In this document: positions 7,301 through 48,830 of the stretch, in pieces
Layout: each line of letters opens with the position of its first letter
Numbering within the stretch: the stretch's first letter is position 1
DNA from: Eledone cirrhosa
Taxonomy: Eukaryota
Reading direction: 5' to 3'
NCBI GenBank assembly: GCA_964016885.1
Contig: OZ024743.1
Coordinates: 137,702,001-137,766,000, forward strand
DNA length: 64,000 bases
Notes under the pieces: generated by a model
The model's database searches: none
What the model was told of the DNA's origin: nothing
Seen by the model: only the letters and a program-made list of their open reading frames with translations
Made by a program: the position numbers and the translations under genes

Positions 7301-7349
7301 GTGCTTGGTTCTTGGTGTTTGGTGCTTGGTGCTTGGTGTTTGGTGCTTG

Positions 7350-22200: not shown

Positions 22201-24780
22201 TGGTGCCTGGTGCTTGGTGCTTGGTGCTTGGTGTTTGGTGTTTGGTGCTTGGTGCTTGGAGTTTGGTGTTTGGTGCTTGGTGCTTGGTCCTTGGTGTTTG
22301 GTGCAGAGTGCTTTGTGTTTGGTGATTGGTGCTTGGTGTTTGGTGTTTGCTGCTTGGTGCTTGGTGCTTGGTGTTTCTACTTGGTGCTTGGTGCTTGGTG
22401 TTTGGTTCTTGGTTCTTGGTGTTTGGTACTTGGTGCTTGGTGCTTGGTGCTTGATGTTTGGTGTTTGGTGCTTGGTGTTTGGTGCTTGGTGGTTGGTGCT
22501 TGGTGCTTGGTGCTTGGTGTTAGGTATTTGGTGCTTGGTGCTTGGTGTTTGGTGCTTGGTGTTTGGTGTTTGCTGTTTGGTGTTTGGTGTTTGCTGTTTG
22601 GTGTTTGCTGTTTGGTGTTTGGTGTTTGCTGTTTGGTGTTTGGTCTTTGGTGCTTGGTGTTTGGTGCTTGGTGTTTGGTGTTTGGTGCTTGGTGCTTGGT
22701 GCTTGGTGTTTGGTGCTTGGTGCTTGGTGTTTTGTGTTTCGTGTTTGGTTTTTGGTGCTTGGTGCTTGGTGCTTGGTCCTTGGTGTTAGGTGCTGGGTGC
22801 TTTGTGTTTGGTGCTTGGTGCTTGGTGTTTGGTGTTTGCTGCTTGGTGCTTGATGCTTGGTGTTTGGTGCTTGGGGCTTGGTGCTTGGTGTTTGTACTTG
22901 GTGCTTAGTGCTTGGTGTTTGGTTCTTGGTTCTTGGTGTTTGGTGCTTGGCATTTGGTGTTTGGTGCTTGGTGCTTGGTGTTTGGTGCTTGGTGCTTGGT
23001 GTTTGGTGCCTGGTGCTTGGTGCTTGGTGCTTGGTGTTTGGAGTTTGGTGTTTGGTGCTTGGTGCTTGGTGCTTGGTCCTTGGTGTTTGGTGCTGGGTGC
23101 TTTGTGTTTGGTGATTGGTGCTCGGTGTTTGGTGTTTGCTGCTTGGTGTTTGATGCTTGGTGCTTGGTGTTTTGTGTTTGGTGCTTGGTGCTTGGTGTTT
23201 GGTGTTTGGTTCTTGGTTCTTGGTGTTTGGTACTTGGTGCTTGGTGCTTGGTGCTTGGTGTTAGGTATTTGGTGCTTGGTGCTTCGTGTTTGGTTCTTGG
23301 TGTTTGGTGTTTGCTGTTTGGAGTTTGGTGTTTGGTGTTTGGTTTTGCTGTCTGGTGTCTGCTTTTTGGTGTTTAGTGTTTGCTGTATGGTGTTTGCTGT
23401 TTCGTGTTTGGTGTTTGCTGTTTGGTGTTTGGTCTTTGGTGCTTGGTGTTTGGTGCTTGGTGTTTGGTGTTTGGTGCTTGCTGCTTGGTGTTTGGTGTTT
23501 GGTGCTTGGTGCTTGGTGTTTGGTGTTTAGTGTTTGGTGCTTGGTGTCTGGTGCTTGGTGTTTGGTGTTTGGTGCTTGGTGTTTGGTGTTTGGTGATTGG
23601 TGCTTGGTGTTTGGTGTTTGCTGCTTGGTGTTTGATGCTTGGTGCTTGGTGTTTTGTGTTTGGTGCTTGGTGCTTGGTGTTTGGTGCTTGATGTTTGGTG
23701 TTTGGTGCTTGGTGTTTGGTGCTTGGTGCTTGGTGCTTGGTGCTTGGTGCTTGGTGCTTGGTGTTAGGTATTTGGTGCTTGGTGCTTGGTGTTTGGTGCT
23801 TGGTGTTTGGTGTTTGCTGTTTGGTGTTTGGTGTTTGCTGTTTGGTGTTTGCTGTTTGGTGTTTGGTGTTTGCTGTTTGGTGTTTGGTCTTTGGTGCTTG
23901 GTGTTTGGTGATTGGTGTTTGGTGTTTGGTGCTTGGTGCTTGGTGTTTGGTGTTTGGTGCTTGGTGCCTGGTGTTTGGTGTTTGGTGTTTGGTGCTTGGT
24001 GTCTGGTGCTTGGTGTTTGCTGCTTGGTGTTTGGTGTTTGGTGCTTGGTGCTTGGTGTTTGGTGTTTGGTGCTTGGTGTTTGGTGTTTGGTGCTTGTTGC
24101 TTGGTGCTTGATGTTTGGTGCTTGGTGCTTGGTGTTTGGTGCTGGGTGCTTGGTGCTTGTTATTTGGTTTTTGGTGCTTGGTGCTTGCTGTTTGGTGTTT
24201 GGTCTTTGGTGCTTGGTGTTTGGTGCTTGGTGTTTGGTGTTATATGCTTGGTGTTTGATGCTTGGTGCTTGGTGCTTGGTGTTTGGTGTTTGGTGTTTGG
24301 TGCTTGGTGCTTGGTGTTCGGTGCTTGGTGCTGAGTGGTTGGTGTTTGGTGCTTGGTGTTTGGTGCTGGGTGCTTGGTGTTTGGTGCTGGGTGCTTGGTG
24401 TTTGGTGCTTGGTGCTTGGTCTTTGGTGCTTGGTGTTTGGTGCTTGGTGCTTGGTGCTTGGTGTTTGGTGCTTGGTGCTTGGTGTTTGGTGCTTGGTGCT
24501 TGGTGTTTGCTGTTTGCTGTTTGGTGTTTGTTGTTTGGTGTTTGTTGTTTGGTGTTTGCTGTTTGGTGTTTGGTGTTTGCTTTTTGGTGTTTGGTGTTTG
24601 CTGTATGTTGTTTGCTGTTTGGTGTTTGGTGTTTGGTGCCTGGTGCTTGGTGCTTGGTGCTTGGTGTTTGGTGTTTGGTGCTTGGTGCTTGGTGCTTGGT
24701 GTTTGGTGCTTGGTGCTTGGTGTTTTGTGTTTCGTGTTTGGTTTTTGGTGCTTGGTGCTTGGTGCTTGGTCCTTGGTGTT
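19227..24780 (+). repeat. Near-perfect 2754-bp tandem duplication
   Basis: ORF pairs have a constant 2754 offset (19788/22542, 20036/22790, 20532/23286, 21158/23912). The GCAGAGTGC marker lies at about 19549/22303. 2754 equals 394 units of which four are 6 bp long. Confidence 0.93.
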
Positions 24781-24989
24781 AGGTGCTGGGTGCTTTGTGT
24801 TTGGTGCTTGGTGCTTGGTGTTTGGTGTTTGCTGCTTGGTGCTTGATGCTTGGTGTTTGGTGCTTGGTGCTTGGTGCTTGGTGTTTGTACTTGGTGCTTG
24901 GTGCTTGGTGTTTGGTTCTTGGTTCTTGGTGTTTGGTGTTTGGCATTTGGTGTTTGGTGCTTGGTGCTTGGTGTTTGGTGCTTGGTGCT

Positions 24990-27900
24990 TGGTGTTTGGT
25001 GCCTGGTGCTTGGTGCTTGGTGCTTGGTGTTTGGAGTTTGGTGTTTGGTGCTTGGTGCTTGGTGCTTGGTCCTTGGTGTTTGGTGCTGGGTGCTTTGTGT
25101 TTGGTGATTGGTGCTTGGTGTTTGGTGTTTGCTGCTTGGTTTTTGATGCTTTGTGCTTGGTGTTTTGTGTTTGGTGCTTGGTGCTTGGTGTTTGGTGCTT
25201 GGTGCTTGGTGCTTGGTGTTTGTACTTGGTGCTTGGTGTTTGGTGTTTGGTTCTTGGTTCTTGGTGTTTGGTACTTGGTGCTTGGTGCTTGGTGCTTGGT
25301 GTTAGGTATTTGGTGCTTGGTGCTTCGTGTTTGGTGCTTGGTGTATGGTGTTTGCTGTTTGGAGTTTGGTGTTTGGTGTTTGGTTTTGCTGTCTGGTGTC
25401 TGCTTTTTGGTGTTTAGTGTTTGCTGTATGGTGTTTGCTGTTTCGTGTTTGGTGTTTGCTGTTTGGTGTTTGGTCTTTGGTGCTTGGTGTTTGGTGCTTG
25501 GTGTTTGGTGTTTGGTGCTTGCTGCTTGGTGTTTGGTGTTTGGTGCTTGGTGCTTGGTGTTTGGTGTTTAGTGTTTGGTGCTTGGTGTCTGGTGCTTGGT
25601 GTTTGGTGTTTGGTGCTTGGTGTTTGGTGTTTGGTGATTGGTGCTTGGTGTTTGGTGTTTGCTGCTTGGTGTTTGATGCTTGGTGCTTGGTGTTTTGTGT
25701 TTGGTGCTTGGTGCTTGGTGTTTGGTGCTTGTTTCTTGGTGCTTGGTGTTTGTACTTGGTGCTTGGTGCTTGGTGTTTGGTTCTTGGTTCTTGGTGTTTG
25801 GTACTTGGTGCTTGGTGTTTGGTGTTTGCTGTTTGGTGTTTGGTGTTTGGTGTTTGGTGTTTGCTGTTTGGTGTCTGCTTTTTGGTGTTTAGTGTTTGCT
25901 GTATGGTGTTTGGTGTTTGCTGTTTGGTGTTTGGTCTTTGGTGCTTGGTGTTTGGTGCTCGGTGCTTGGTGTTTGGTATTCGGTGCTTGCTGCTTGGTGT
26001 TTGGTGCTTGGTGCTTGGTGTTTGGGTTTTGGTGCTTGGTGTCTGGTGCTTGGTGTTTGGTGCTTGGTGTTTGGTGTTTGGTGCTTGGTGTTTGGTGTTT
26101 GGTGTTTGGTGCTTGGTACTTGGTGTTTGGTGTTTGGTGTTTGGTGCTTGGTGTCTGGTGCTTGGTGTTTGGTGTTTGGTGCTTGGTGTTTGGTGTTTGG
26201 TGTTTGTTGCTTGGTGCTTGGTGCTTGGTGTTTGGTGTTTGGTGTTTGGTGCTTGGTGCTTGGTGTTTGGTGCTTGGTGCTGAGTGGTTGGTGTTTGGTG
26301 CTTGGTGTTTGGTGCTGGGTGCTTGGTTTTTGGTCCTGGGTGCTTGGTGTTTGGTGCTTGGTGCTTGGTGCTTGGTGTTTGGTGCTTGGTGCTTGGTGTT
26401 TGGTGCTTGGTGCTTAGTGTTTGGTGCTAGGTGCTTGGTGTTTGGTGCTTGGTGTTTGGTGCTTGGTGCTTGGTGTTTGGTGTTTGGTGTTTGGTGCTTG
26501 GTGTTTGGTGCTTGGTGCTTGGTGTTTGGTGTTTGGTGCTTGGTGCTTGGTGCTTGGTGTTTGGTGTTTGGTGTTTGGTGCTTGGTGCTTGGTGTTTGGT
26601 GCTTGGTGCTGAGTGGTTGGTGTTTGGTGCTTGGTGTTTGGTGCTGGGTGCTTGGTTTTTGGTCCTGGGTGCTTGGTGTTTGGTGCTTGGTGCTTGGTGC
26701 TTGGTGTTTGGTGCTTGGTGCTTGGTGTTTGGTGCTTGGTGCTTAGTGTTTGGTGCTAGGTGCTTGGTGTTTGGTGCTTGGTGTTTGGTGCTTGGTGCTT
26801 GGTGTTTGGTGTTTGGTGTTTGGTGCTTGGTGCTTGGTGTTTGCTGTTGCTGTTTGGTGTTTGTTGTTTGGTGTTTGTTGTTTGGTGTTTGCTGTTTGGT
26901 GTTTGGTGTTTGCTATTTGGTGTTTGGTGTTTGCTCTATGTTGTTTGCTGTTTGGTGTTTGGTGTTTGGTGTTTGGTGTTTGGTGTTTGGTGTTTGGTGC
27001 TTGGTGTTTGGTGCTTGGTGCTTGGCGTTTGGTGCCTGGTGCTTGGTGCTTGATGCTTGGTGTTTGGTTTTTGGTGCTTGGTGCTTGGTGCTTGGTCCTT
27101 GGTGTTTGGTGCTGGGTGCTTTGTGTTTGGTGCTTGGTGCTTGGTGCTTGGTGTTTGGTGTTTGCTGCTTGGTGTTTGATGCTTGGTGCTTGGTGCTTGG
27201 TGTTTTGTGTTTGGTGCTTGGTGCTTGGTGTTTGGTGTTTGGTGCTTGGTGCTTGGTGTTTGTACTTGGTGCTTGGTGCTTGGTGTTTGGTTCTTGGTTC
27301 TTGGTGTATGGTGTTTTGCGTTTGGTGTTTGGTGCTTGGTGTTTGGTGCTTGGTGCTTGGTGTTTGGTGCCTGGTGCTTGGTGCTTGGTGCTTGGTGTTT
27401 GGTGTTTGGTGCTTGGTGCTTGGAGTTTGGTGTTTGGTGCTTGGTGCTTGGTGCTTGGTCCTTGGTGTTTGGTGCAGGGTGCTTTGTGTTTGGTGATTGG
27501 TGCTTGGTGTTTGGTGTTTGCTGCTTGGTGCTAGGTGCTTGGTGTTTCTACTTGGTGCTTGGTGCTTGGTGTTTGGTTCTTGGTTCTTGGTGTTTGGTAC
27601 TTGGTGCTTGGTGCTTGGTGCTTGATGTTTGGTGTTTGGTGCTTGGTGTCTGGTGCTTGGTGGTTGGTGCCTGGTGCTTAGTGCTTGGTGTTAGGTATTT
27701 GGTGCTTGGTGCTTGGTGTTTGGTGCTTGGTGTTTGGTGTTTGCTGTTTGGTGTTTGGTGTTTGCTGTTTGGTGTTTGCTGTTTGGTGTTTGGTGTTTGC
27801 TGTTTGGTGTTTGGTCTTTGGTGCTTGGTGTTTGGTGCTTGGTGTTTGGTGTTTGGTGCTTGGTGCTTGGTGCTTGGTGTTTGGTGCTTGGTGCTTGGTG

Positions 27901-30300
27901 TTTTGTGTTTCGTGTTTGGTTTTTGGTGCTTGGTGCTTGGTGCTTGGTCCTTGGTGTTAGGTGCTGGGTGCTTTGTGTTTGGTGCTTGGTGCTTGGTGTT
28001 TGGTGTTTGCTGCTTGGTGTTTGATGCTTGGTGTTTGGTGCTTGGTGCTTGGTGCTTGGTGTTTGTACTTGGTGCTTAGTGCTTGGTGTTTGGTTCTTGG
28101 TTCTTGGTGTTTGGTGCTTGGCATTTGGTGTTTGGTGCTTGGTGCTTGGTGTTTTTGGTGCTTGGTGCTTGGTGTTTGGTGCCTGGTGCTTGGTGCTTGG
28201 TGCTTGGTGTTTGGAGTTTGGTGTTTGGTGCTTGGTGCTTGGTGCTTGGTCCTTGGTGTTTGGTGCTGGGTGCTTTGTGTTTGGTGATTGGTGCTTGGTG
28301 TTTGGTGTTTGCTGCTTGGTGTTTGATGCTTGGTCCTTGGTGTTTTGTGTTTGGTGCTTGGTGCTTGGTGTTTGGTGCTTGGTGCTTGGTGCTTGGTGTT
28401 TGTACTTGGTGCTTGGTGTTTGGTGTTTGGTTCTTGGTTCTTGGTGTTTGGTACTTGGTGCTTGGTGCTTGGTGCTTGGTGTTAGGTATTTGGTGCTTGG
28501 TGCTTCGTGTTTGGTGCTTGGTGTTTGGTGTTTGCTGTTTGGAGTTTGGTGTTTGGTGTTTGGTTTTGCTGTCTAGTGTCTGCTTTTTGGTGTTTAGTGT
28601 TTGCTGTATGGTGTTTGCTGTTTCGTGTTTGGTGTTTGCTGTTTGGTGTTTGGTCTTTGGTGCTTGGTGTTTGGTGCTTGGTGTTTGGTGTTTGGTGCTT
28701 GCTGCTTGGTGTTTGGTGTTTGGTGCTTGGTGCTTGGTGTTTGGTGTTTAGTGTTTGGTGCTTGGTGTCTGGTGCTTGGTGTTTGGTGTTTGGTGCTTGG
28801 TGTTTGGTGTTTGGTGATTGGTGCTTGGTGTTTGGTGTTTGCTGCTTGGTGTTTGATGCTTGGTGCTTGGTGTTTTGTGTTTGGTGCTTGGTGCTTGGTG
28901 TTTGGTGCTTGGTGCTTGGTGCTTGGTGTTTGTACTTGGTGCTTGGTGCTTGGTGTTTGGTTCTTGGTTCTTGGTGTTTGGTACTTGGTGCTTGGTGTTT
29001 GGTGTTTGCTGTTTGGTGTTTGGTGTTTGGTGTTTGGTGTTTGCTGTTTGGTGTCTGCTTTTTGGTGTTTAGTGTTTGCTGTATGGTGTTTGGTGTTTGC
29101 TGTTTCGTGTTTGGTCTTTGGTGCTTGGTGTTTGGTGCTCGGTTCTTGGTGTTTGGTATTCGGTGCTTGGTGCTTAGTGTTTGGTGCTTGGTGTTTGGTG
29201 TTTGGTGTTTGGTGCTTGGTGTCTGGTGCTTGGTGTTTGGTGCTTGGTGTTTGGTGTTTGGTGCTTGGTGTTTGGTGTTTGGTGTTTGGTGCTTGGTGCT
29301 TGGTGTTTGGTGTCTGGTGTTTGGTGCTTGGTGTCTGGTGCTTGGTGTTTGGTGTTTGGTGCTTGGTGTTTGGTGTTTGGTGTTTGGTGCTTGGTGCTTG
29401 GTGCTTGGTGTTTGGTGTTTGGTGTTTGGTGCTTGGTGCTTGGTGTTTGGTGCTTGGTGCTGAGTGGTTGGTGTTTGGTGCTTGGTGTTTGGTGCTGGGT
29501 GCTTGGTTTTTGGTCCTGGGTGCTTGGTGTTTGGTGCTTGGTGCTTGGTGCTTGGTGTTTGGTGCTTGGTGCTTGGTGTTTGGTGCTTGGTGCTTAGTGT
29601 TTGGTGCTAGGGGCTTGGTGTTTGGTGCTTGGTGTTTGGTGCTTGGTGCTTGGTGTTTGGTGTTTGGTGTTTGGTGCTTGGTGTTTGGTGCTTGGTGCTT
29701 GGTGTTTGGTGTTTGGTGCTTGGTGCTTGGTGCTTGGTGTTTGGTGTTTGGTGTTTGGTGCTTGGTGCTTGGTGTTTGGTGCTTGGTGCTGAGTGGTTGG
29801 TGTTTGGTGCTTGGTGTTTGGTGCTGGGTGCTTGGTTTTTGGTCCTGGGTGCTTGGTGTTTGGTGCTTGGTGCTTGGTGCTTGGTGTTTGGTGCTTGGTG
29901 CTTGGTGTTTGGTGCTTGGTGCTTAGTGTTTGGTGCTAGGTGCTTGGTGTTTGGTGCTTGGTGTTTGGTGCTTGGTTCTTGGTGTTTGGTGTTTGGTGTT
30001 TGGTGCTTGGTGCTTGGTGTTTGCTGTTTGGTGTTTGGTGTTTGTTGTTTGGTGTTTGTTGTTTGGTGTTTGCTGTTTGGTGTTTGGTGTTTGCTATTTG
30101 GTGTTTGGTGTTTGCTGTATGTTGTTTGCTGTTTGGTGTTTGGTGTTTGGTGTTTGGTGTTTGGTGTTTGGTGTTTGGTGCTTGGTGTTTGGTGCTTGGT
30201 GCTTGGTGTTTGGTGCCTGGTGCTTGGTGCTTGATACTTGGTGTTTGGTTTTTGGTGCTTGGTGCTTGGTGCTTGGTCCTTGGTGTTTGGTGCTTGGTGC
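24990..30300 (+). repeat. About 3180-bp higher-order duplication, related to the block at about 17400-19230
   Basis: ORF pairs 25327/28507, 25421/28601, 26421/29601 and 26750/29930 are all offset by 3180. ORF 17513..18469 is near-identical to 25327..26283. Confidence 0.88.
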
Positions 30301-32400
30301 TTGGTGTTTGGTGCTTGGTGCTTGGTGCTTGGTGTTTGTACTTGGTGCTTGGTGCTTGGTGTTTGGTTCTTGGTTCTTGGTGTTTGGTGTTTTGCGTTTG
30401 GTATTTGGTGCTTGGTGTTTGGTGCTTGGTGCTTGGTGTTTGGTGCCTGGTGCTTGGTGCTTGGTGCTTGGTGTTTGGTGTTTGGTGCTTGGTGCTTGGA
30501 GTTTGGTGTTTGGTGCTTGGTGCTTGGTGCTTGGTCCTTGGTGTTTGGTGCTGGGTGCTTTGTGTTTGGTGATTGGTGCTTGGTGTTTGGTGTTTGCTGC
30601 TTGGTGTTTGATGCTTGGTGTTTTGTATTTGGTGCTTGGTGCTTGGTGTTTGGTGCTTGGTGCTTGGTGCTTGGTGTCTCTACTTGGTGCTTGGTGCTTG
30701 GTGTTTGGTTCTTGGTTCTTGGTGTTTGGTACTTGGTGCTTGGTGCTTGGTGCTTGATGTTTGGTGTTTGGTGCTTGGTGTTTGGTGCTTGGTGGTTGGT
30801 GCTTGGTGCTTGGTGCTTGGTGCTTGGTGTTTGGTGCTTGGTGTTTGGTGTTTGCTGTTTGGTGTTTGGTGTTTGCTGTTTGGTGTTTGCTGTTTGGTGT
30901 TTGGTGTTTGCTGTTTGGTGTTTGGTCTTTGGTGCTTGGTGTTTGGTGCTTGGTGTTTGGTGTTTGGTGCTTGGTGCTTGGTGTTTGGTGTTTGGTGCTT
31001 GGTGCTTGGTGTTTGGTGTTTGGTGTTTGGTGCTTGGTGTCTGGTGCTTGGTGTTTGGTGTTTGGTGCTTGGTGTTTGGTGTTTGGTGCTTGGTGCTTGG
31101 TGTTTGGTGTTTGGTGCTTGGTGTTTGGTGTTTGGTGCTTGTTGCTTGGTGCTTGATGTTTGGTGCTTGGTGCTTGGTGTTTGGTGCTGGGTGTTTGGTG
31201 TTTGGTGCTTGGTGCTTGGTGTTTGGTGCTTGGTGCTGAGTGGTTGGTGTTTGGTGCTTGGTGTTTGGTGCTGGGTGCTTGGTGTTTGGTGCTGGGTGCT
31301 TGGTGTTTGGTGCTTGGTGCTTGGTCTTTGGTGCTTGGTTTTTGGTGCTTGGTGCTTGGTGCTTGGTGTTTGGTGCTTGGTGCTTGGTGTTTGGTGCTTG
31401 GTGCTTGGTGTTTGCTGTTTGCTGTTTGGTGTTTGTTGTTTGGTGTTTGTTGTTTGGTGTTTGCTGTTTGGTGTTTGGTGTTTGCTTTTTGGTGTTTGGT
31501 GTTTGCTGTATGTTGTTTGCTGTTTGGTGTTTGGTGTTTGGTGTTTGGTGCTTGGTGCTTGGTGTTTGGTGCCTGGTGCTTGGTGCTTGGTGCTTGGTGT
31601 TTGGTGTTTGGTGCTTGGTGCTTGGTGCTTGGTGTTTGGTGTTTGGTGCTTGGTGCTTGGTGTTTTGTGTTTCGTGTTTGGTTTTTGGTGCTTGGTGCTT
31701 GGTGCTTGGTCCTTGGTGTTAGGTGCTGGGTGCTTTGTGTTTGGTGCTTGGTGCTTGGTGTTTGGTGTTTGCTGCTTGGTGCTTGATGCTTGGTGTTTGG
31801 TGCTTGGTGCTTGGTGCTTGGTGTTTGTACTTGGTGCTTGGTGCTTGGTGTTTGGTTCTTGGTTCTTGGTGTTTGGTGTTTGGCATTTGGTGTTTGGTGC
31901 TTGGTGCTTCGTGTTTGGTGCTTGGTGCTTGGTGTTTGGTGCCTGGTGCTTGGTGCTTGGTGCTTGGTGTTTGGTGTTTGGGGCTTGGTGCTTGGAGTTT
32001 GGTGTTTGGTGCTTGGTGCTTGGTGCTTGGTGTTTGGTGCTGGGTGCTTTGTGTTTGGTGATTGGTGCTTGGTGTTTGGTGTTTGCTGCTTGGTGTTTGA
32101 TGCTTGGTGCTTAGTGTTTTGTGTTTGGTGCTTGGTGCTTGGTGTTTGGTGCTTGGTGCTTGGTGCTTGGTGTTTGTACTTGGTGCTTGGTGTTTGGTGT
32201 TTGGTTCTTGGTTCTTGGTGTTTGGTACGTGGTGCTTGGTGCTTGGTGCTTGGAGTTAGGTATTTGGTGCTTGGTGCTTCGTGTTTGGTGCTTGGTGTTT
32301 GGTGTTTGCTGTTTGGAGTTTGGTGTTTGGTGTTTGGTTTTGCTGTCTGGTGTCTGCTTTTTGGTGTTTAGTGTTTGCTGTATGGTGTTTGCTGTTTCGT

Positions 32401-32430
32401 GTTTGGTGTTTGCACCCAACACCAAACACC
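32401..32430. other. Spacer-less inversion junction (strand switch) between the two arms
   Basis: Sequence reads gtttggtgtttg-c-acccaacaccaaacacc. C32413 can belong to either arm (1-bp overlap), and there is no inserted foreign DNA. Confidence 0.97.
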
Positions 32431-35400
32431 AAACATCAAACACCAATCACGAATCACCAAACAGCAAACAGCAAACACCAAACACCAAACACCAAACACC
32501 AAGCACCAAGCACCAAACACCAAACACCAAGCACCAAGCACCAAACACCAAATACCAAGCACCAAGCACCAAGCACCAAGCACCAAACACCAAGCACCAA
32601 GCACCAAGCACCAAACACCAAGCACCAAACACCAAGCACCAGACACGAAGCACCAAGCACCAAATACCAAGCACCAAAAACCAAGCACCAAGCTCCAAGG
32701 ACCAAACACCAAGCACCACACACCAAACACCAAGCACCAAGCATGAAACACCAAGCATCAAGCGCCAAATACCAAACACCAAGCACCAAGCACCAAATAC
32801 CAAGCACCAAGCACCAAGCACCAAGCACCAAACACCAAACACCAAACACCAAACAGCAAACAGCAAACTCCAAACACCAAACACCAAACAGCAAACACCA
32901 AACACCAAACAGCAAACACCAAACAGCAAACAGCAAACACCAAACACCAACCAGCAAACACCAAGCACCAAACACCAAGCACCAAGCAACAAGCACCAAT
33001 CACCAAGCACCAAGCACTAAACACCAAACACCAAGCACCAAGCACCATGGACCAAACACCAAGCATCAAGCACCAAGCACCAAACGCCAAGCACCAAGCA
33101 CCAAACACCAAGCACCAAGCACCATGCACCAAACACCAAGCACCAAAGACCAAGCACCAAATACCAAGCACCAAGCACCAAACACCAATCACCAAGCACC
33201 AAGCACCAAACACCAAGAACCCAGCACCAATCACTAAACACCAAACACCAAGCACCAAGCACCAAGTACCAAACTCCAAACACCAAACACCAAGCACCAA
33301 GCACCAAATCGCAAGCACCAAACACCAAGCACCAAGCACCAAACACCAAACACCAAGCACCAAGCACCATGGACCAATCACCAAACACCAAGCACCAAGC
33401 ACCAAACACCAAACACTAAGCACCAAGCACCAAACAGCAAACACCAAGCACCTAGCACCAAGCACCAAGCACCAAGCACCAAACACCAAGCACCAAGCAC
33501 CAAGCCCCAAACACCAAGCACCAAACACCAAGCACCAGACACGAAGCACCAAGCACCAAATACCAAGCACCAAAAACCAAGCACCAAGCTCCAAGGACCA
33601 AACACCAAGCACCAAACACCAAACACCAAGCACCAAGCATGAAACACCAAGCACCAAGCGCCAAACACCAAACACCAAGCACCAAGCACCAAATACCAAG
33701 CACCAAGCACCAAGCACCAAGCACCAAACACCAAACACCAAACACCAAACACAAAACAGCAAACAGCAAACTCCAAACACCAAACACCAAACAGCAAACA
33801 CCAAACACCAAACAGCAAACACCAAACAGCAAACACCAAACACCAACCAGCAAACACCAAACACCAAACACCAAACAGCAAACGCCAAACAGCAAACGCC
33901 AAACACCAAACGCCAAACAGTAAGCACCAAGCACCAAACACCAAACACCAAGCACCAAGCACCAAACACCAAACACCAAGCACCAAGCACCAAACACCAA
34001 ACACCAAGCACCAAGCACTAAACACCAAACACCAAGCACCAAGCACCAAGCCCCAAACACCAAGCACCAAGCACCAAGCACCAAACACCAAGCACCAAGC
34101 ACCAAACACGAACCAGCAAACACCAAACACCAAACACCAAACAGCAAACACAAAACACCAAACACCAAATAGCAAACGCCGAAAAGCAAACGCCAAACCC
34201 CAAACGCCAAACAGCAAACGCCAAGCACCAAACACCAAACACCAAGCACCAAGCACCAAACACCAAACACCAAGCACCAAGCACCAAACACCAAACACCA
34301 AGCACCTAGCACCAAATAGCAAACACCAAGCCCCAAGCACCAAACACCCAACACCAAACACCAAACATCAAACACCAATCACGAATCACCAAACAGCAAA
34401 CAGCAAACACCAAACACCAAATACCAAACACCAAGCACCAAGCACCAAACACCAAACACCAAGCACCAAGCACCAAACACCAAATACCAAGCACCAAGCA
34501 CCAAGCACCAAGCACCAAACACCAAGCACCAAGCACCAAGCACCAAACACCAAGCACCAAACACCAAGCACCAGACACGAAGCACCAAGCACCAAATACC
34601 AAGCACCAAAAACCAAGCACCAAGCTCCAAGGACCAAACACCAAGCACCAAACACCAAACACCAAGCACCAAGCATGAAACACCAAGCACCAAGCGCCAA
34701 ACACCAAACACCAAGCACCAAGCACCAAATACCAAGCACCAAGCACCAAGCACCAAGCACCAAACACCAAACACCAAACACCAAACAGCAAACAGCAAAC
34801 TCCAAACACCAAACACCAAACAGCAAACACCAAACACCAAACAGCAAACACAAAACAGCAAACAGCAAACACCAAACACCAACCAGCAAACACCAAGCAC
34901 CAAACACCAAGCACCAAGCAACAAGCACCAATCACCAAGCACCAAGCACTAAACACCAAACACCAAGCACCAAGCACCATGGACCAAACACCAAGCATCA
35001 AGCACCAAGCACCAAACGCCAAGCACCAAGCACCAAACACCAAGCACCAAGCACCATGCACCAAACACCAAGCACCAAACACCAAGCACCAAATACCAAG
35101 CACCAAGCACCAAACACCAATCACCAAGCACCAAGCACCAAACACCAAGAACCCAGCACCAATCACTAAACACCAAACACCAAGCACCAAGCACCAAGTA
35201 CCAAACTCCAAACACCAAACACCAAGCACCAAGCACCAAATCGCAAGCACCAAACACCAAGCACCAAGAACCAAACACCAAACACCAAGCACCAAGCACC
35301 ATGCACCAATCACCAAACACCAAGCACCAAGCACCAAAGACCAAACACTAAGCACCAAGCACCAAACACCAAACACCAAGCACCTAGCACCAAGCACCAA

Positions 35401-38400
35401 GCACCAAGCACCAAACACCAAGCACCAAGCACCAAGCCCCAAACACCAAGCACCAAACACCAAGCACCAGACACGAAGCACCAAGCACCAAATACCAAGC
35501 ACCAAAAACCAAGCACCAAGCTCCAAGGACCAAATACCAAGCACCAAACACCAAACACCAAGCACCAAGCCTGAAACACCAAGCACCAAGCGCCAAACAC
35601 CAAACACCAAGCACCAAGCACCAAATAACAAGCACCAAGCACCAAGCACCAAGCACCAAACACCAAACACCAAACACCAAACACCAAACACCAAACAGCA
35701 AACTCCAAACACCAAACACCAAACAGCAAACACCAAACAGCAAACACCAAACACCAACCAGCAAACACCAAACACCAAACACCAAACAGCAAACGCCAAA
35801 CATCAAACGCCAAACACCAAACGCCAAACAGCAAACGCCAAACACCAAACGCCAAACAGTAAGCACCAAGCACCAAACACCAAACACCAAGCACCAAGCA
35901 CCAAACACCAAACACCAAGCACCAAGCACCAAACACCAAACACCAAGCACCAAGCACTAAACACCAAACACCAAGCACCAAGCACCAAGCCCCAAACACC
36001 AAGCACCAAACACCAAGCACCAAACACCAAGCACCAAACACCAAGCACCAAACACCAAGCACCAAGCACCAAGCACCAAACACCAAGCACCAAGCACCAA
36101 ACACCAACCAGCAAACACCAAACACCAAACACCAAACAGCAAACTCCAAACACCAAACACCAAATAGCAAACGCCAAAAAGCAAACGCCAAACCCCAAAC
36201 GCCAAACAGCAAACGCCAAGCACCAAACACCAAACACCAAGCGCCAAGCACCAAACAGCAAACACCAAGCACCAAGCACCAAACACCAAACACCAAGCAC
36301 CAAGTACCAAAGAGCAAACACCAAGCCCCAAGCACCAAACACCCAACACCAAACACCAAACATCAAACACCAATCACGAATCACCAAACAGCAAACAGCA
36401 AACACCAAACACCAAACACCAAACACCAAGCACCAAGCACCAAACACCAAACACCAAGCACCAAGCACCAAACACCAAATACCAAGCACCAAGCACCAAG
36501 CACCAAGCACCAAGCACCAAACACCAAGCACCAAGCACCAAGCACCAAACACCAAGCACCAAACACCAAGCACCAGACACGAAGCACCAAGCACCAAATA
36601 CCAAGCACCAAAAACCAAGCACCAAGCTCCAAGGACCAAACACCAAGCACCAAACACCAAACACCAAGCACCAAGCATGAAACACCAAGCACCAAGCGCC
36701 AAACACCAAAAACCAAGCACCAAGCACCAAATACCAAGCACCAAGCACCAAGCACCAAGCACCAAACACCAAACACCAAACACCAAACAGCAAACAGCAA
36801 ACTCCAAACACCAAACACCAAACAGCAAACACCAAACACCAAACAGCAAACACCAAACAGCAAACAGCAAACACCAAACACCAACCAGCAAACACCAAGC
36901 ACCAAACACCAAGCACCAAGCAACAAGCACCAATCACCAAGCACCAAGCACTAAACACCAAACCCCAAGCACCAAGCACCATGGACCAAACAACAAGCAT
37001 CAAGCACCAAGCACCAAACGCCAAGCACCAAGCACCAAACACCAAGCACCAAGCACCATGCACCAAACACCAAGCACCAAAGGCCAAGCACCAAATACCA
37101 AGCACCAAGCACCAAACACCAATCACCAAGCACCAAACACCAAACACCAAGAACCCAGCACCAATCACTAAACACCAAACACCAAGCACCAAGCACCAAA
37201 TCCCAAGCACCAAACACCAAGCACCAAGCACCAAACACCAAACACCAAGCACCAAGCACCATGCACCAATCACCAAACACCAAGCACCAAGCACCAAACA
37301 CCAAACACCAAGCACCAAGCACCAAACACCAAACACCAAGCACCTAGCACCAAGCACCAAGCACCAAGCACCAAACACCAAGCACCAAGCACCAAGCCCC
37401 AAACACCAAGCACCAAACACCAAGCACCAGACACGAAGCACCAAGCACCAAATACCAAGCACCAAGCTCCAAGGACCAAACACCAAGCACCAAACACCAA
37501 ACACCAAGCACCAAGCATGAAACACCAAGCACCAATCGCCAAACACCAAACACCAAGCACCAAGCACCAAATACCAAGCACCAAGCACCAAGCACCAAGC
37601 ACCAAACACCAAACACCAAACACCAAACACCAAACAGCAAACAGCAAACTCCAAACACCAAACACCAAACAGCAAACACCAAACACCAAACAGCAAACAC
37701 CAAACAGCAAACACCAAACACCAAACACCAACCAGCAAACACCAAACACCAAACACCAAACAGCAAACGCCAAACATCAAACGCCAGACACCAAACGCCA
37801 AACAGCAAACGCCAAACACCAAACGCCAAACAGCAAGCACCAAGCACCAAACACCAAACACCAAGCACCAAGCACCAAACACCAAACACCAAGCACCAAG
37901 CACCAAACACCAAACACCAAGCACCAAGCACTAAACACCAAACACCAAGCACCAAGCACCAAGCACCAAACACCAAGCACCAAACACCAAGCACCAAACA
38001 CCAAGCACCAAGCACCAAGCACCAAGCACCAAACACCAAGCACCAAGCACCAAACACCAACCAGCAAACACCAAACACCAAACACCAAACAGCAAACACC
38101 AAACACCAAACACCAAATAGCAAACGCCAAAAAGCAAACGCCAAGCCCCAAACGCCAAACAGCAAACGCCAAGCACCAAACACCAAACACCAAGCGCCAA
38201 GCACCAAACACCAAACACCAAGCACCAAGCACCAAACACCAAACACCAAGCACCAAGCACCAAAGAGCAAACACCAAGCCCCAAGCACCAAACACCCAAC
38301 ACCAAACACCAAACATCAAACACCAATCACGAATCACCAAACAGCAAACAGCAAACACCAAACACCAAACACCAAACACCAAGCACCAAGCACCAAACAC

Positions 38401-38450
38401 CAAACACCAAGCACCAAGCACCAAACACCAAACACCAAGCACCAAGCACT
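32413..38450 (-). repeat. About 1.95-kb higher-order repeat, three copies plus the start of a fourth, beginning at the junction
   Basis: CACCCAACACC occurs at 32413, 34345, 36340 and 38293, and GAATCACC at 32451, 34383, 36378 and 38331. Periods are 1932, 1995 and 1953 (276, 285 and 279 x 7). The internal marker GCTCCAAGGACC occurs at 32692/33588, 34624/35520 and 36626/37466. Confidence 0.93.
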
Positions 38451-40369
38451 AAACACCAAACACCAAGCAGCAAGCACCAAGCACCAAACACCAAGCACCA
38501 AGCACCAGGCACCAAACACCAAGCACCAAGCACCAGACACCAAAAACCAAGCACCAAACAACAAGCACCAAACACCAAGCACCAAGCACCAAGCACCAGA
38601 TACCAAGCACCAAGCACCAAGCACCAAACACCAAACACCAAGCACCAAGTACCACGTACCAAACACCAAACACCAAGCACCAAACACCAAGCACCAAACA
38701 CCAAGCACCAAGCACCAAAACACCAAAAACCAAGCACCAAGCACTAAACACCAAGCACCAAGCACCAAGCACCAAGCACCAAACACCAAGCACCAAGCAG
38801 CAGGCACCAAGCACCAAACACCAAGCATCAAGCACCAAACAGCAAACATCAAGCACCAAACACCAAACACCAAGTACCAAGCACCAAACACCAAACACCA
38901 AGGACCAAACAGCAAACACCAAACAGCAAACACCAAACACCAAACACCAACCAGCAAACACCAAACACCAAACACCAAACCACAAACACCAAACAGCAAA
39001 CACCAAACAGCAAAGACCAAACACCAAAGACCAAACAGCAAACGCCAAAAAGCAAACGCCAAACCCCAAACGCCAAACAGCAAATGCCAAACCCCAAATG
39101 CCAAACAGCAAACGCCAAGCACCAAACACCAAACACCTAGCACCAAGCACCAAACCCCAAACACCAAACACCAAGTACAAAACACCAACCACCAAGCACC
39201 AAACACCAAACAGCAAACGCCAAAAAGCAAATGCCAAACCCCATACGCCAAACAGGAAATGCCAAACCCCAAACGCCAAACAGCAAACGCCAAGCACCAA
39301 ACACCAAACACCAAGTGCCAAGCACCAAACACCAAACACCAAGCACCAAGCACCAAACACCAAACACCAAGCAGCAATCACCAAACACCAAGCACCAAGC
39401 GCCAAACACCAAACACCAAACTCCTAGCACCAAGCACCAAGCACCAAACACCAAGCACCAAACACCAAGCACCAAGCACAAAGCACCAAGCACCAAACAC
39501 CAATCACCAAGCCCCAAGCACCAAACACCAAACACCAAGCACCAAGCACCAAGCACCAAGCACCAGACACCAAACACCAAGCACGAAGCACCAAACACCA
39601 AAAACCAATCACCAAGCCCCAAGTACCAAACACCAAGCACCAAACACCAAACAGCAAACACTAAACAACAAACTCCAAACAGCAAACACCAAACACCAAA
39701 TATCAAACACCAAACAGCAAACACCAAACAGCAAACAGCAAACACCAAACACCAACCAGCAAACACCAAACAGCAAACACCAAACAGCAAACGCCAAACA
39801 GCAAACACAAACACCAAACACCAAACACCAAGCACCAAGCACCAAGCACAAAACACCAAGCACCAAGCGCCAAACACCAAACACCAAGCACTAAGCACCA
39901 AGCACCAAGCACCAAACACCAAACACCAAACACCAAACAGCAAACACCAATCACCAAACACCAAACACGAAACACCAAACAGCAAACACCAAACACCAAA
40001 CACCAAACACCAAACAGCAAACACCAAACACCAAACACCAAACAGCAAACACCAAACAGCAAACACCAAACAGCAAACACCAAACAGCAAACACCAAACA
40101 GCAAACAGCAAACACCAAACACCAAGCACCAAACACCAAGCACCAAGCAACAAGCGCCAATCAGCAAGCACCAAGCACTAAACACCAAACACCAAGCACC
40201 AAGCACCATGCACCAAACACCAAGCATGAAGCACCAAGCACCAAACGCCAAGCACCAAGCACCAAACACCAAGCACCAAGCACCAAGCACCAGACACCAA
40301 GCACCAAAGACCAAGCACCAAATACCAAGCACCAAGCCCTAAACACCAATCACCAAGCCCCAAGCACCA

Positions 40370-41940
40370 AACACCAAGAACCAAGCACCAAAACACCAAA
40401 AACCAAGCACCAAGCACTAAACACCAAGCACCAAGCACCAAGCATCAAGCACCAAGCACCAAGCACCAAGCACCAAACACGAAGCACCAAGCACCAGGCA
40501 CCAAACCGCAAACACCAAGCACCAAACACCAAGCACCAAGCACCAAACACCAAACACCAAGCACCAAGCACCAAACACCAGACACCAAGCACCAAACAGC
40601 AAACACCAAACAGCAAACACCAAACACCAAACACCAACCAGCAAACACCAAACACCAAACACCAAACCACAAACACCAAACAGCAAACACCAAACAGCAA
40701 ACACCAAACACCAATCACCAAGCCCCAAGCACCAAACACCAAGCACCAAGCACCAAGCACCCAGAACCAAGCACCAAGCACCAAAGACCAAACACCAAGC
40801 ACCAAGCACCAAACACCAAACACCTAGCACCAAGCACCAAGCACCAAGCACCAAACACCATGCACCAAGCACGAAGCACCAAACACCAAGAACCAAGCAC
40901 CAAAACACCAAAAACCAAGAACCAAGCACCAAAACACCAAACACCAAGCACCAAGCACCAAACACCAAACACCAAGCACCAAACAGCAAGCATCAAGCAC
41001 CAAGCACCAAGCACCAAGCACCAAACACCAATCATCAAGCACCAAACAGCAAACACCAAGCACCAAACACCAAACACCAAGCACCAAGCACCAAACACCA
41101 AACACCAAGCACCAAGCACCAAACACCAAGCACGAAGCACCAAACAGCAAACACCAAACAGCAAACACCAAACACCAAACACCAACCAGCAAACACCAAA
41201 CACCAAACACCAAACCACAAACACCAAACAGCAAACACCAAACAGCAAACACCAAACACCAATCACCAAGCCCCAAGCACCAAACACCAAGCACCAAGCA
41301 CCAAGCACCCAGAACCAAGCACCAAGCACCAAAGACCAAACACCAAGCACCAAGCACCAAACACCAAACACCAAGCACCAAGCACCAAGCACCAAACACC
41401 ATGCACCAAGCACGAAGCACCAAACACCAAGAACCAAGCACCAAAACACCAAAAACCAAGAACCAAGCACCAAAACACCAAAAACCAAGCACCAAGCACT
41501 AAACACCAAGCACCAAGCACCAAGCATCAAGCACCAAGCACCAAGCACCAAGCACCAAACACCAATCATCAAGCACCAAACAGCAAACACCAAGCACCAA
41601 ACACCAAACACCAAGCACCAAGCACCAAACACCAAACACCAAACACCAAACAGCAAACACCAAACATCAAACACCAAACACCAAACACCAACCAGCAAAC
41701 ACCAAACACCAAACCACAAACACCAAACAGCAAACACCAAACAGCAAACACCAAACACCAATCACCAAGCCCCAAGCACCAAACACCAAGCACCAAGCAC
41801 CAAGCACCCAGAACCAAGCACCAAGCACCAAAGACCAAACACCAAGCACCAAGCACCAAACACCAAACACCAAGCACCAAGCACCAAGCACCAAGCACCA
41901 AACACCATGCACCAAGCACGAAGCACCAAACACCAAAAAC
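40370..41940 (-). repeat. About 0.5-kb module in three tandem copies, containing 8-bp CACCAAAA units
   Basis: CCAGAACC marker at 40761, 41309 and 41808 (548 and 499 apart, each 7n+2, matching two 8-bp units per copy). Confidence 0.8.
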
Positions 41941-42299
41941 CAATCACCAAGCACCAAAGAGCAAACACCAAGCCCCAAGCACCAAACACCAAACACCAAA
42001 CACCAAACAGCAAACACTAAACACCAAACACCAAACAGCAAACACCAAACACCAAATATCAAACACCAAACAGCAAACACCAAACAGCAAACAGCAAACA
42101 CCAAACACCAACCAGCAAACACCAAACAGCAAACACCAAACAGCAAACGCCAAACAGCAAACACAAACACCAAACACCAAACACCAAGCACCAAGCGCCA
42201 AACACCAAACACCAAGCACCAAGCGCCAAACACCAAACACCAAGCACCAAGCACCAAGCACCAAGCACCAAACACCAAACAGCAAACAGCAAACAGCAA

Positions 42300-45200
42300 A
42301 CAGCAAACAGCAAACACCAAACACCAAACACCAAGCACCAAACACCAAGCACCAAGCAACAAGCACCAATCAGCAAGCAGCAAGCACTAAACACCAAACA
42401 CCAAGCACCAAGCACCATGCACCAAACACCAAGCATGAAGCACCGAGCACCAAACGCCAAGCACCAAGCAACAAACACCAAGCACCAAGCACCAAGCACC
42501 AAGCACCAAACACCAAGCACCAAAGACCAAGCACCAAATACCAAGCACCAAGCACCAAACACCAATCACCAAGCCCCAAGCACCAAACACCAAGAATTAA
42601 GCACCAATCACTAAACACCAAACACCAAGCACCAAGCACCAAACTCCAAACACCAAACACCAAGCACCAAGCACCAAATCCCAAGCACCAAACACCAAGC
42701 ACCAAGCACCAAACGCCAAACACCAAGCACCAAGCACCAGACACCAAGCACCAAGCACCAAGCACCAAACACCAAAAACCAAGCACCAAGCTCCAAGCAC
42801 CAAACACCAAGCACCAAACACCAAACACCAAGCACCAAGCACCAAACACCAAGCACCAAGCGCCAAACACCAAACACCAAGAACAAAGTACCAAACACCA
42901 ACCACCAACCACCAAGCACAAAACACCAAGCACCAAGCACCAATCACCAAACACCAAGCACCAAGCACCAAACACCAAACACCAAGCACCAAGCACCAAA
43001 CACCAAACACCAAGCACCAAGCACCAATCACCAAGCACCAAGCACCAAGCACCAAGCACCAAACACCAAGCACCAAGCACCAAGCACCAAACACCAAGCA
43101 CCAAACACCAAACACCAAGCACCAAGCACGAAACACCAAGCACCAAGCGCCAAACACCAAACACCAAGCACCAAGCACCAAATACCAAGCACCAAGCACA
43201 AAGAACCAAGCACCAAACACCAAACAGCAAACAGCAAACACCAAACACCAAACACCAAACAGCAAACAGCAAACACCAAACCGCAAACACCAAACAGCAA
43301 ACACCAAACACCAAACACCAACCAGCAAACACCAAACACCAAACACCAAACAGCAAACGCCAAACATCAAACGCAAAACACCAAACGCCAAACAGCAAAC
43401 GCCAAACACCAAACGCCAAACAGCAAGCACCAAGCACTAAACACCAAACACCAAACACCAAGCACCAAGCACCAAACACCAAACACCAAGCACCAAGCAC
43501 CAAGCACCAAACACCAAGCACCAAGCACCAAGCACCAAACACCAAGCACCAAGCACCAAACACGAAGCACCAAACACCAAGCACCAAGCACCAAGCACCA
43601 AACACCAAGCACCAAACAGCAAGCACCAAACACCAAGCACCAAGCACCAAAACACCAAAAACCAAGCACCAAGCACTAAACACCAAGCACCAAGCACCAA
43701 GCATCAAACACCAAGCACCAAGCACCAAGCACCAAACACCAAGCACCAAGCACCAGGCACCAAGCCCCAAACACCAAGCATCAAGCACCAAACAGCAAAC
43801 ACCAAGCACCAAACACCAAGCATCAAGCACCAAGCACCAAGCACCAAGCACCAAACACCAAGCACCAAGCACCAGGCACCAAACACCAAACACCAAGCAC
43901 CAAGCACCAAACACCAAACACCAAGCACCAAGCACCAAACACCAAACCACAAACACCAAACAGCAAACACCAAACAGCAAACAGCAAACACCAAACACCA
44001 AACAGCAAACGCCAAAAAGCAAATGCCAAACCCCATACGCCAAACAGCAAATGCCAAACCCCAAACGCCAAACAGCAAACGCCAAGCACCAAACACCAAA
44101 CACCAAGCGCCAAGCACCAAACACCAAACACCAAGCACCAATCACCAAACACCAAGCACCAAGCGCCAAACACCAAACACCAAACTCCTAGCACCAAGCA
44201 CTAAGCACCAAACACCAAGCACCAAACACCAAGCACCAAGCACCAAGCACCAAGCACCAAACACCAATCACCAAGCCCCACGCACCAAACACCAAGCACC
44301 AAGCACCAAGCACCCAGAACCAAGCACCAAGCAACAAACACCAAACACCAAGCACGAAGCACCAAACACCAAACACCAAGCACCAAGCAGCAAGCACCAA
44401 GCACCAAACACCATACACCAAGCACGAAGCACCAAACACCAAAAACCAATCACCAAGCACCAAAGAGCAAACACCAAGCCCCAAGTACCAAACACCAAAC
44501 ACCAAACACCAAACAGCAAACACTAAACACCAAACTCCAAACAGCAAACACCAAACACCAAATATCAAACACCAACCAGCAAACACCAAACAGCAAACAC
44601 CAAACAGCAAACACCAAACAGCAAACAGAAAACACCAAACACCAACCAGCAAACACCAAGCACCAAACACCAAACAGCAAACGCCAAAAAGCAAATGCCA
44701 AACCCCATACGCCAAACAGCAAATGCCAAATCCCAAACGCCAAACAGCAAACGCCAAGCGCCAAACACCAAACACCAAGCGCCAAGCACCAAACACCAAG
44801 CACCAATCACCAAACACCAAACACCAAACTCCTAGCACCAAGCACCAAGCACCAAACACCAAGCACCAAACACCAAGCACCAAGCACCAAGCACCAAGCA
44901 CCAAACACCAATCACCAAGCCCCAAGCACCAAATAACAAGCACCAAGCACCAAGCACCCAGAACCAAGCACCAAGCACCAAGCTCCAAGCACCAAGCACC
45001 AAGCACCAAACACCAAACACCAAGCACCAAGCACCAAACACCAAGCACCAAGCGCCAAACACCAAACACCAAGAACAAAGTACCAAACACCAAGCACCAA
45101 CCACCAAGCACAAAACACCAAGCACCAAGCACCAAGCACCAAACACCAAGCACCAAGCACCAAGCACCAAACACCAAACACCAAGCACCAAGCACCAAGC

Positions 45201-48150: not shown

Positions 48151-48279
48151 CAAATACCAAGCACCAAGCACTAAACACCAAACAGCAAGCACCAAGCACC
48201 AAGCACCAAGCACCAAGCACCAAACACCAAGTACAAAGCACCAAGCACCAAACACCAAACACCAAACACCAAGCACCAA

Positions 48280-48830
48280 GCACCAAACACCAAACACCAA
48301 GCACCAAGCACCAGACACCAAGCACCAAGCACCAAGCACCAATCACCTAACACCAAGCACGAAGCACCAAACACCAAACACCAAGCACCAAGCACCAAAC
48401 ACCAAATACCAAGCACGAAGCACCAAGCACCAAGCACCAAATACCAAACACCAAGCAACAAGCACCAAACACCAAACACCAAACACCAGGCACCAAGCAC
48501 CAAGCACCAAGCACCAAGCAAAAAACACAAAGCACCAAGCACCAAGCACCAAACACCAAACACCAAGCACCAAGCACCAGACACCAAGCACCAAGCACCA
48601 AGCACCAATCACCTAACACCAAGCACGAAGCACCAAACACCAAACACCAAGCACCAAGCACCAAACACCAAATACCAAGCACGAAGCACCAAGCACCAAG
48701 CACCAAATACCAAACACCAAGCAACAAGCACCAAACACCAAACACCAAACACCAGGCACCAAGCACCAAGCACCAAGCACCAAGCAAAAAACACAAAGCA
48801 CCAAGCACCAAGCACCAAACACCAAACACC
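48280..48830 (-). repeat. 266-bp (38-unit) tandem duplication
   Basis: AATCACCTAACACCAAGCACGAAG occurs twice, with CCTAA at about 48346 and 48612. ORFs 48343 and 48609 share their C-terminal translation. Confidence 0.85.

What the first reader, a model, noticed from the sequence alone, without database searches (positions are those of the whole stretch)
32380..32460. Clean, spacer-less polarity switch joining two truncated higher-order units with 1-bp microhomology
Seen: the left-side text GCTGTTTCGTGTTTGGTGTTTGC occurs five other times (final C at 17645, 20664, 23418, 25459, 28639) and always continues TGTTTGGTGTTTGGTCTTTGG. At 32413 it is cut. The right-side text CACCCAACACCAAACACCAAACATC occurs at 34345, 36340 and 38293, always preceded by CAAGCCCCAAGCACCAAA, which is missing at 32413. 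Both breakpoints therefore map to single-base resolution and share only one C, with no filler. Inference: a single end-joining or template-switch event fused two pre-existing arrays in opposite orientation, and little has changed since.
Basis: partly seen in the sequence, partly recalled or inferred. Interest (0 to 1): 0.75.

Follow-up and report, generated by a model that had tools for sequence, protein, structure and literature searches.

The report
Satellite inversion joint copied ten times
The direction flip in this repeat DNA is real, but the same join occurs ten times along one 14.6-million-base satellite block, so it is likely one old rearrangement scar carried along by megabase-sized duplications, not a unique or functional site.

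Summary
It occurs 10 times (9 forward, 1 reversed) within a 14.6-Mb array on one contig. Each copy carries about 0.3% private substitutions, so a mis-join or chimeric read is unlikely. Every copy opens a 105-256 kb reversed block closed by a partner joint (a 40-bp palindrome, its centre deleted in one copy). Two such blocks are collinear over 100 kb, and markers recur at matching offsets. So one joint was copied, in a burst, inside a 0.4-1.9 Mb macro-repeat, later nested in a ~2.7 Mb duplication and an inverted duplication. The array has 31 orientation changes: 29 direct joints from 7 origins, 2 at an island of other satellites. One shared base arises in 16% of random joins, so it does not reveal the mechanism. 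Bases beside the joint mutate at the background rate. Raw-read support could not be tested. Spacer-less, amplified inversion sites are described in Tribolium satellites, and the scan reported this array before from other windows. New member of a known kind; interest 0.3.

The parts
1..32413 (+). Left arm: 7-bp satellite, G/T strand on +, higher-order type L; the last 32 kb of a forward block that starts at C4:137.412 Mb
   Evidence: TRF period 7, 4626 copies, 84% matches; composition; block start
32413..32413 (.). Joint A: the single C shared by both arms; one of 10 copies in the genome (C4:137,734,413)
32399..32429 (.). Predicted hairpin tip at the joint: 12-bp perfect stem, 7-nt loop; a by-product of any strand switch in this satellite
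   Evidence: DNA fold of 120 nt: -36.6 kcal/mol, against 0 and -1.2 for the two uncut donor regions
32413..64000 (-). Right arm: first 31.6 kb of the 156-kb reversed block R (different higher-order type, about 1.9-2.0 kb period near the joint), closed by partner joint E at C4:137,890,777 outside the window
17623..17645 (+). Uncut copy of the left donor word
20642..20664 (+). Uncut copy of the left donor word
23396..23418 (+). Uncut copy of the left donor word (second copy of a 2,754-bp tandem duplication at 0.04% divergence)
25437..25459 (+). Uncut copy of the left donor word
28617..28639 (+). Uncut copy of the left donor word
34327..34369 (+). Uncut copy of the right donor word with its 18-base lead-in
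36322..36364 (+). Uncut copy of the right donor word with its 18-base lead-in
38275..38317 (+). Uncut copy of the right donor word with its 18-base lead-in

Best explanation
The switch at 32413 is one of ten copies of the same spacer-less joint in a 14.6-Mb satellite array; it likely arose once by end-joining or a replication template switch, and was likely then copied passively as part of a roughly megabase-sized repeat unit. Shown: the unit is [forward block - joint A - reversed block of 105-256 kb - joint E - forward block], spaced 0.44-1.85 Mb apart. Inferred: most copies arose in a short burst (unequal crossing-over or break-induced replication), because their differences are mostly private. 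Later events, inferred from shared variants and repeated landmarks, were a long-range inverted duplication (130.0-130.4 to 134.5-135.0 Mb), a ~2.7-Mb duplication carrying joint H and a satellite island, exchange between units, gain and loss of tens of kb inside each unit, and deletion of the palindrome centre of one E copy. Not resolved: whether A began as an inversion breakpoint or as the new joint of a duplication of a segment that already held E.
For: 10 copies, 9 on + and 1 on -, all on C4 130.2-141.0 Mb, none elsewhere in 3.0 Gb, control 0. 10 of 10 have E (9) or its derivative D (1) as the next switch on the reversed side, 105-256 kb away; the inverted A copy has an inverted E. Two whole reversed blocks (105 and 156 kb) are collinear: 27 diagonals of 1.2 kb or more at 0-1.1% divergence. 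A marker 108 kb past the window's E recurs 108-173 kb past E/D in 6 units (11 hits). Private substitutions 58 in 22,781 and 83 in 25,949 aligned bases on the two A arms, with only 7 and 8 sites shared by several copies. A130.209/A134.761 share 4 variants on the left arm, their E partners share 3, and both have joint F 192-220 kb beyond A. H occurs twice, 2.64 Mb apart, and the island-to-satellite join twice, 2.72 Mb apart, at 0.26-0.31%. Substitutions within 150 bp of A: 9/2,965 against 142/34,954 further out, p=0.54; for E 4/2,897 against 72/30,368, p=0.41.
Against: No raw reads were laid across any copy, so reality rests on the assembly. The array holds at least one scaffold gap (200 N at C4:137,411,371), and I fetched only part of it, so the order of units across gaps may be wrong and unseen pairs of switches are possible. 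A and E genealogies are not fully congruent: the right arm of A130.209 shares 3 variants with A138.740, not with A134.761; A135.989 and A138.740 share none although their E partners share 5; the window's A is no closer to A140.594 (0.65-0.85%) than to others. This needs exchange between units on top of duplication. The constraint test has low power (9 and 4 events). A and E are not clean reciprocal ends: the donor continuation of A does not match the start of either E arm. E141.214's left arm could not be aligned to the reference (0 bases covered).
Confidence: 0.85

Rival explanations
1. Functional structural element: the paired joints are kept and multiplied because their hairpins or cruciforms organise (peri)centromeric chromatin, as proposed for Tribolium macro-dyad symmetries, or because breakage at the E palindrome drives the amplification.
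For: Both joints fold into long hairpins (A -36.6, E -68.3 kcal/mol per 120 nt). E is a 40-bp perfect palindrome in 9 of 10 copies. One further copy (D) has lost about 80 bp on one side and 425-650 bp on the other side of that centre, which fits occasional breakage there. Tribolium authors propose such a role (PMC13081366, 10.1101/2024.12.02.626372; passages).
Against: Any strand switch in this satellite folds. No excess conservation at A or E (p=0.54 and 0.41). Copies carry point changes 9 and 20 bases from A and a 35-bp deletion starting within about 25 bases. Joints are sparse (2.1 per Mb) and were found on one contig only. No chromatin data.
Confidence: 0.08
2. Recurrent formation: the same breakpoint arose independently many times at a hotspot defined by the two variant units.
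For: Uncut donor words are common (56 exact copies of the right word); another joint (G) cuts the same kind of unit at the same phase.
Against: All 10 copies share about 2.5 kb of flank on both sides at under 1% divergence where alignable, far closer than the two arms are to each other (7-14%). The right donor word lies only inside the reversed blocks, within 20 kb of A or 16 kb of E/D. Whole blocks are collinear.
Confidence: 0.03
3. Assembly artefact: a chimeric read or mis-join, repeated by false duplication.
For: No read-level confirmation was obtained; the array has at least one gap.
Against: Each copy has its own substitutions and whole-unit (7n) indels, which read error or false duplication would not give. 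No N lies within 5 kb of any A or E copy. The arms are not mirror copies, unlike a fold-back chimeric read. The pairing with E holds even in the inverted copy.
Confidence: 0.04

Closest known systems
Tribolium freemani TfSat01 inversion segments (10.1101/2024.12.02.626372; 12 passages seen)
   Same: A few joint types (six there), each an abruptly cut unit joined to a reversed cut unit with no foreign sequence, present in many near-identical copies (95.0-99.9%); predicted hairpin tip.
   Different: There: 166-bp monomer, kb to tens-of-kb subarrays, 1,793 two-subarray arrays, joints shared by 3-7 chromosomes, eccDNA shown. Here: 7-bp unit, blocks of 0.01-1.3 Mb, 10 copies on one contig, carried in a megabase macro-repeat whose lineage can be traced.
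Tribolium madens TmSat1/TmSat2 macro-dyad symmetries, INV_1a, INV_1b, INV_2 (PMC13081366; abstract and 12 passages)
   Same: Conserved, multiplied inversion sites in megabase satellite regions; conserved transition zones between two satellites (as at the island here).
   Different: Thousands of copies (2,044 to 6,428), dyads up to 75 kb, a degenerate subunit at the site, confirmed on raw HiFi reads. The paper says such symmetries were documented only in Tribolium. Here the arms are different higher-order types, not a mirror pair.
Human HSat3B5 (chr9) and beta-satellite strand switches; alpha-satellite macro-repeats (10.1101/2021.07.12.452052; passages)
   Same: Simple-sequence satellite of many Mb with many inversion breakpoints (over 200); large macro-repeats inside arrays (chr12).
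   Different: The passages seen count breakpoints but do not describe their sequence or whether they descend from few origins; supplements could not be seen.
Inverted amplification by template switching (ODIRA; PMC10766183, abstract only) and DUP-TRP/INV-DUP structures (recalled)
   Same: Joint B elsewhere in the array looks like a fold-back with about 4 kb asymmetry and a 2-bp overlap.
   Different: Joint A itself is not a fold-back: no mirror segment within 31 kb.

Membership tests
Conserved, amplified satellite inversion sites (Tribolium type) | Orientation switch made of two truncated units of the same satellite with no foreign sequence | tested here: met
Conserved, amplified satellite inversion sites (Tribolium type) | Few joint types, each in many near-identical copies | tested here: met
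   A x10, E x10 plus derivative D, F x3, H x2, B, C, G x1
Conserved, amplified satellite inversion sites (Tribolium type) | Predicted hairpin extending almost to the tip | tested here: met
   12-bp stem, 7-nt loop at A
Conserved, amplified satellite inversion sites (Tribolium type) | Same joint shared between non-homologous chromosomes | tested here: not met
   All A, E, F and H matches in 1,796 contigs are on C4 128.8-143.4 Mb; the tool calls its counts lower bounds
Conserved, amplified satellite inversion sites (Tribolium type) | (Peri)centromeric location, presence in eccDNA | not testable with these tools
   No CENP-A, FISH or 2D-gel data
Fold-back inversion (breakage-fusion-bridge or ODIRA junction) | Arms are near-identical mirror copies with a small offset | tested here: not met
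   0 mirror segments for A within 31 kb; 13 for joint B and 6 for joint G within 5 kb
Balanced (reciprocal) inversion A-E | The two breakpoints rejoin to the uncut donors | tested here: not met
   The uncut continuation of A's left arm does not match the start of either E arm, compared by eye
Microhomology-mediated joint (MMEJ or template switch) | Overlap longer than random joining gives | tested here: inconclusive
   A has 1 bp; 16.3% of random joins give 1 or more, 2.6% give 2 or more. Of 4 joint types with donors on both sides: A 1, B 2, D 1, C 0 or unclear
Telomere-telomere fusion | Head-on telomeric repeats at the joint | tested here: not met
   The unit is TTGGTGY with higher-order structure, and the joint is internal and repeated 10 times; the organism's telomere repeat was not determined

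The most novel reading that the evidence does not exclude
The A-E cassette is an engine rather than a passenger: hairpin or cruciform breakage at the spacer-less joints, above all at the perfect E palindrome, triggered the burst that turned one block into a 14.6-Mb array of megabase units, with the centre-deleted D copy as a frozen repair product. That would make this a natural, base-resolved record of palindrome-driven megabase amplification of satellite DNA outside Tribolium.
Probability: 0.12. Interest if true: 0.62.

Novelty: new member of a known kind. Interest (0 to 1): 0.3.

Why it matters
It corrects a tempting reading: a clean strand switch in a satellite looks like a unique fusion scar but can be one of many copies. 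The joints are single-origin markers inside otherwise unalignable DNA, so they give the growth history of a 14.6-Mb array: megabase units, a burst, nested and inverted duplications. They also bear on a question raised in the Tribolium papers, whether conserved inversion sites are kept by function or simply copied along: here the bases beside the joint change about as fast as their flanks, which favours passive copying, although the test is weak.

Tried and rejected
Raw-data check: the best public holders of window 31900-32900 (X17-X19, one sample, 0.61-0.65 of words) are short-read unitigs; no listed record bridged the joint in a 251-bp or a 57-bp stretch (most records were not shown, and those listed were 71 bp or shorter). 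Three RAD-seq runs of the same species label laid 0 reads. Neither is a test of presence or absence. Generic switch patterns missed joints with variant units (searches missed A134.327, F134.981 and both H copies), so I added joint-specific searches and sampling. First idea that the extra 70 kb in the window's reversed block was a private expansion: rejected, most of it matches the terminal block at 142.95-143.02 Mb, so it was more likely lost from the 105-kb copy, though it holds very young 11.3-kb duplications (0.02-0.04%). Idea that the reversed block began as a 3.7-kb piece next to E: rejected, its two ends are only 93-96% alike in patches. Idea that the terminal block holds the uncut donor of A: not shown; it follows the window's block for about 134 of 156 kb from E, then passes into another subtype without the A-proximal layer. 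The product of overlap probabilities printed left out joint C and is not used; counting C as 0, three of four with an overlap has a chance of about 0.015 (hand arithmetic). Global-alignment divergences above about 1.5% reflect alignment across local rearrangements; that call held 9 of 10 A copies. A paper search for palindrome centre deletion gave nothing usable, so that parallel is recalled only. Searches listed no paper on this satellite; none was aimed at its unit sequence, so I make no claim that it is undescribed. No absolute dating: no mutation rate is available. The organism was not determined.
Full report
1. Observation. The window is a single 7-bp satellite, consensus TTGGTGY, about 84% unit identity, with the G/T strand on + up to 32413 and the A/C strand after it. 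The two arms are different higher-order types: they share 747 of 8,317 left-arm 35-mers and no 150-mer; the best cross-arm diagonals differ by 7-14%.

2. The joint is not unique. The window is G000:C4:137,702,001-137,766,000 (3.0 Gb genome, contig 378.8 Mb). A 37-base junction word matches 8 times exactly; a 32-base word with up to 3 mismatches matches 10 times, at 130.209, 131.437, 133.037, 134.327, 134.761 (minus strand), 135.989, 137.734 (this window), 138.740, 140.594 and 141.034 Mb, with 0 for the reversed control. All 10 have the same breakpoint. Each carries private substitutions (2-13 on the left arm, 3-15 on the right, in 1.2-3.0 kb aligned; 0.26% and 0.32% overall) and indels of whole units. 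That pattern argues against a chimeric read or false duplication. Read-level proof was not obtained (inconclusive).

3. The partner joint. The reversed block that starts in the window ends 156 kb further on at joint E (C4:137,890,777), a spacer-less switch that forms a 40-bp perfect palindrome in 9 of 10 copies. E occurs 10 times. An eleventh related joint, D at 131.693, matches E on both sides but lacks about 80 bp left and 425-650 bp right of the centre; it also lacks a short irregular unit that E copies have, so it either split early or arose in two steps. All 10 A copies have E (9) or D (1) as the next switch on their reversed side, 105-256 kb away. One E (142.890, inverted) has no A.

4. 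Map of the array. It runs from about 128.823 to 143.422 Mb, 14.6 Mb. I located 29 direct joints: A x10, E x10, D, F x3 (129.212, 130.017, 134.981), H x2 (136.967, 139.610), and single B (134.467), C (142.158) and G (129.226). Two more orientation changes pass through an island of other satellites: 140.036-140.137 Mb (64 of 100 kb read, plus one 1-kb sample) and 137.411 Mb, where a 200-N gap leaves only 600 bp of it. The 31 changes alternate correctly. I hold about 1.27 Mb, partly overlapping, of which most lies in the array, so missed pairs remain possible.

5. The copied unit is large. Two whole reversed blocks (105 kb at 134.33; 156 kb at 137.73) are collinear, with 27 diagonals of 1.2 kb or more at 0-1.1% divergence; about 70 kb of the longer one is missing from the shorter but largely present in the terminal block. 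A 45-base marker 108 kb past the window's E recurs 108-173 kb past E or D in 6 units (11 hits; absent from the other 5 E copies, two of which are followed by only 35 and 59 kb). A second marker lies about 289-295 and 316-319 kb before A in 2 units only. Successive forward A copies lie 0.44-1.85 Mb apart.

6. Order of events (inferred). Most differences among copies are private, with 7, 8, 9 and 6 shared sites on the four arms: a star-like burst. The inverted cassette at 134.5-135.0 Mb shares 4 variants with A130.209 and 3 with E130.436, and both have F 192-220 kb beyond A: a later inverted duplication over 4.5 Mb, direction unknown. E136.174 and E138.931 share 5 variants, and H and the island join recur 2.64 and 2.72 Mb apart at 0.26-0.31%: a younger ~2.7-Mb duplication. 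Against a simple tree: A130.209's right arm sides with A138.740; A135.989 and A138.740 share nothing; the window's A is not especially close to A140.594. So units also exchange sequence.

7. How A first formed. It is not a fold-back (0 mirror segments within 31 kb), whereas B (0.21% over 486 bp at about 4 kb offset) and probably G are. A and E are not clean reciprocal ends. One shared base is found in 16.3% of random blunt joins, so it is weak evidence. Across the four joint types with donors on both sides the overlaps are 1, 2, 1 and 0 or unclear, compatible with mild use of microhomology. End-joining and template switching cannot be told apart. Whether A is an inversion breakpoint or the joint of a duplication that already contained E is open.

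8. Function. A folds into a hairpin (-36.6 kcal/mol; E -68.3; D -51.4; uncut donors about 0), as any switch in this satellite must. Substitution density within 150 bp of A is 0.30% against 0.41% further out (p=0.54), and for E 0.14% against 0.24% (p=0.41): no sign of constraint, low power. Passive copying is the best reading.

9. Comparison. Tribolium freemani TfSat01 has six types of spacer-less inversion segments made of truncated monomers, 95.0-99.9% alike and shared by several chromosomes (10.1101/2024.12.02.626372, passages); T. madens has thousands of conserved inversion sites (PMC13081366, abstract and passages). Human HSat3B5 and beta-satellite arrays hold over 200 breakpoints, and alpha-satellite arrays show macro-repeats (10.1101/2021.07.12.452052, passages; supplements not seen and may describe the breakpoints). 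ODIRA: abstract only (PMC10766183). This case works like the Tribolium sites but is sparser, confined to one contig and carried in megabase units. Earlier notes of this scan describe joints E and H of the same array and reach the same reading; they are AI notes, not independent support. One note calls the genome a likely octopus; I did not test that.

10. Verdict. Observation confirmed; interpretation partly supported; new member of a known kind; interest 0.3.

Noticed in passing
G000:C4:131,693,280 (L095) against E copies (L085-L094): Joint D is an E copy without the palindrome centre (about 80 bp left, 425-650 bp right removed; 1-bp overlap); resembles centre deletions that stabilise palindromes (parallel recalled, no paper seen).
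   Followed up: partly
G000:C4:140,036,400-140,136,676 (L235-L240, L212, L213): 100-kb island inside the array: an AT-rich, diverged ~12-bp satellite that itself flips strand every few kb with (AT)n at some turns, then at least 36 kb of a mixed 25/28-bp satellite that joins the 7-mer at a shared short word.
   Followed up: partly
G000:C4:137,411,371-137,411,570 (L181): 200-N scaffold gap, 290 kb before the window; a second copy of the island appears collapsed here (only 600 bp of the 25/28-bp satellite remain).
   Followed up: yes
G000:C4:134,466,815 (L096) and 129,226,100 (L128): Single-copy joints B and G have mirror-like arms (offsets about 4 kb and 3 kb) and sit between inverted pairs of E and F: candidate fold-back centres.
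   Followed up: partly
L174:5313-9561, L218:962-1037 (left edge); L175:659-732, L219:6765-6838 (right edge): tRNA-Arg genes or tRNA-like repeats flank both ends of the array: 6 on + at the left edge (5 TCG, 1 GCG), 1 Arg-TCG and 1 Ala on - at the right edge (5 loci scanned), hinting that the array sits inside an inverted tRNA cluster.
   Followed up: no
window 19226-24780 and 54768-63378; G000:C4:137.77-137.79 Mb: Very young local duplications: 2,754 bp at 0.04%, 5.6-5.7 kb at 0.05-0.33%, 11.3-11.6 kb at 0.02-0.04%. The youngest could also be haplotype or assembly duplicates.
   Followed up: no
G000:C4:143.015-143.022 Mb (L228, L229): The terminal block passes from type R to another subtype in the same orientation without joint A; may be the state before A arose, or a later same-strand join.
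   Followed up: partly
G000:C1:171,138,665; C2:297,630,125; C24:23,438,515: Short inverted repeats matched by the loose pattern (control gave 1); probably unrelated hairpins.
   Followed up: no
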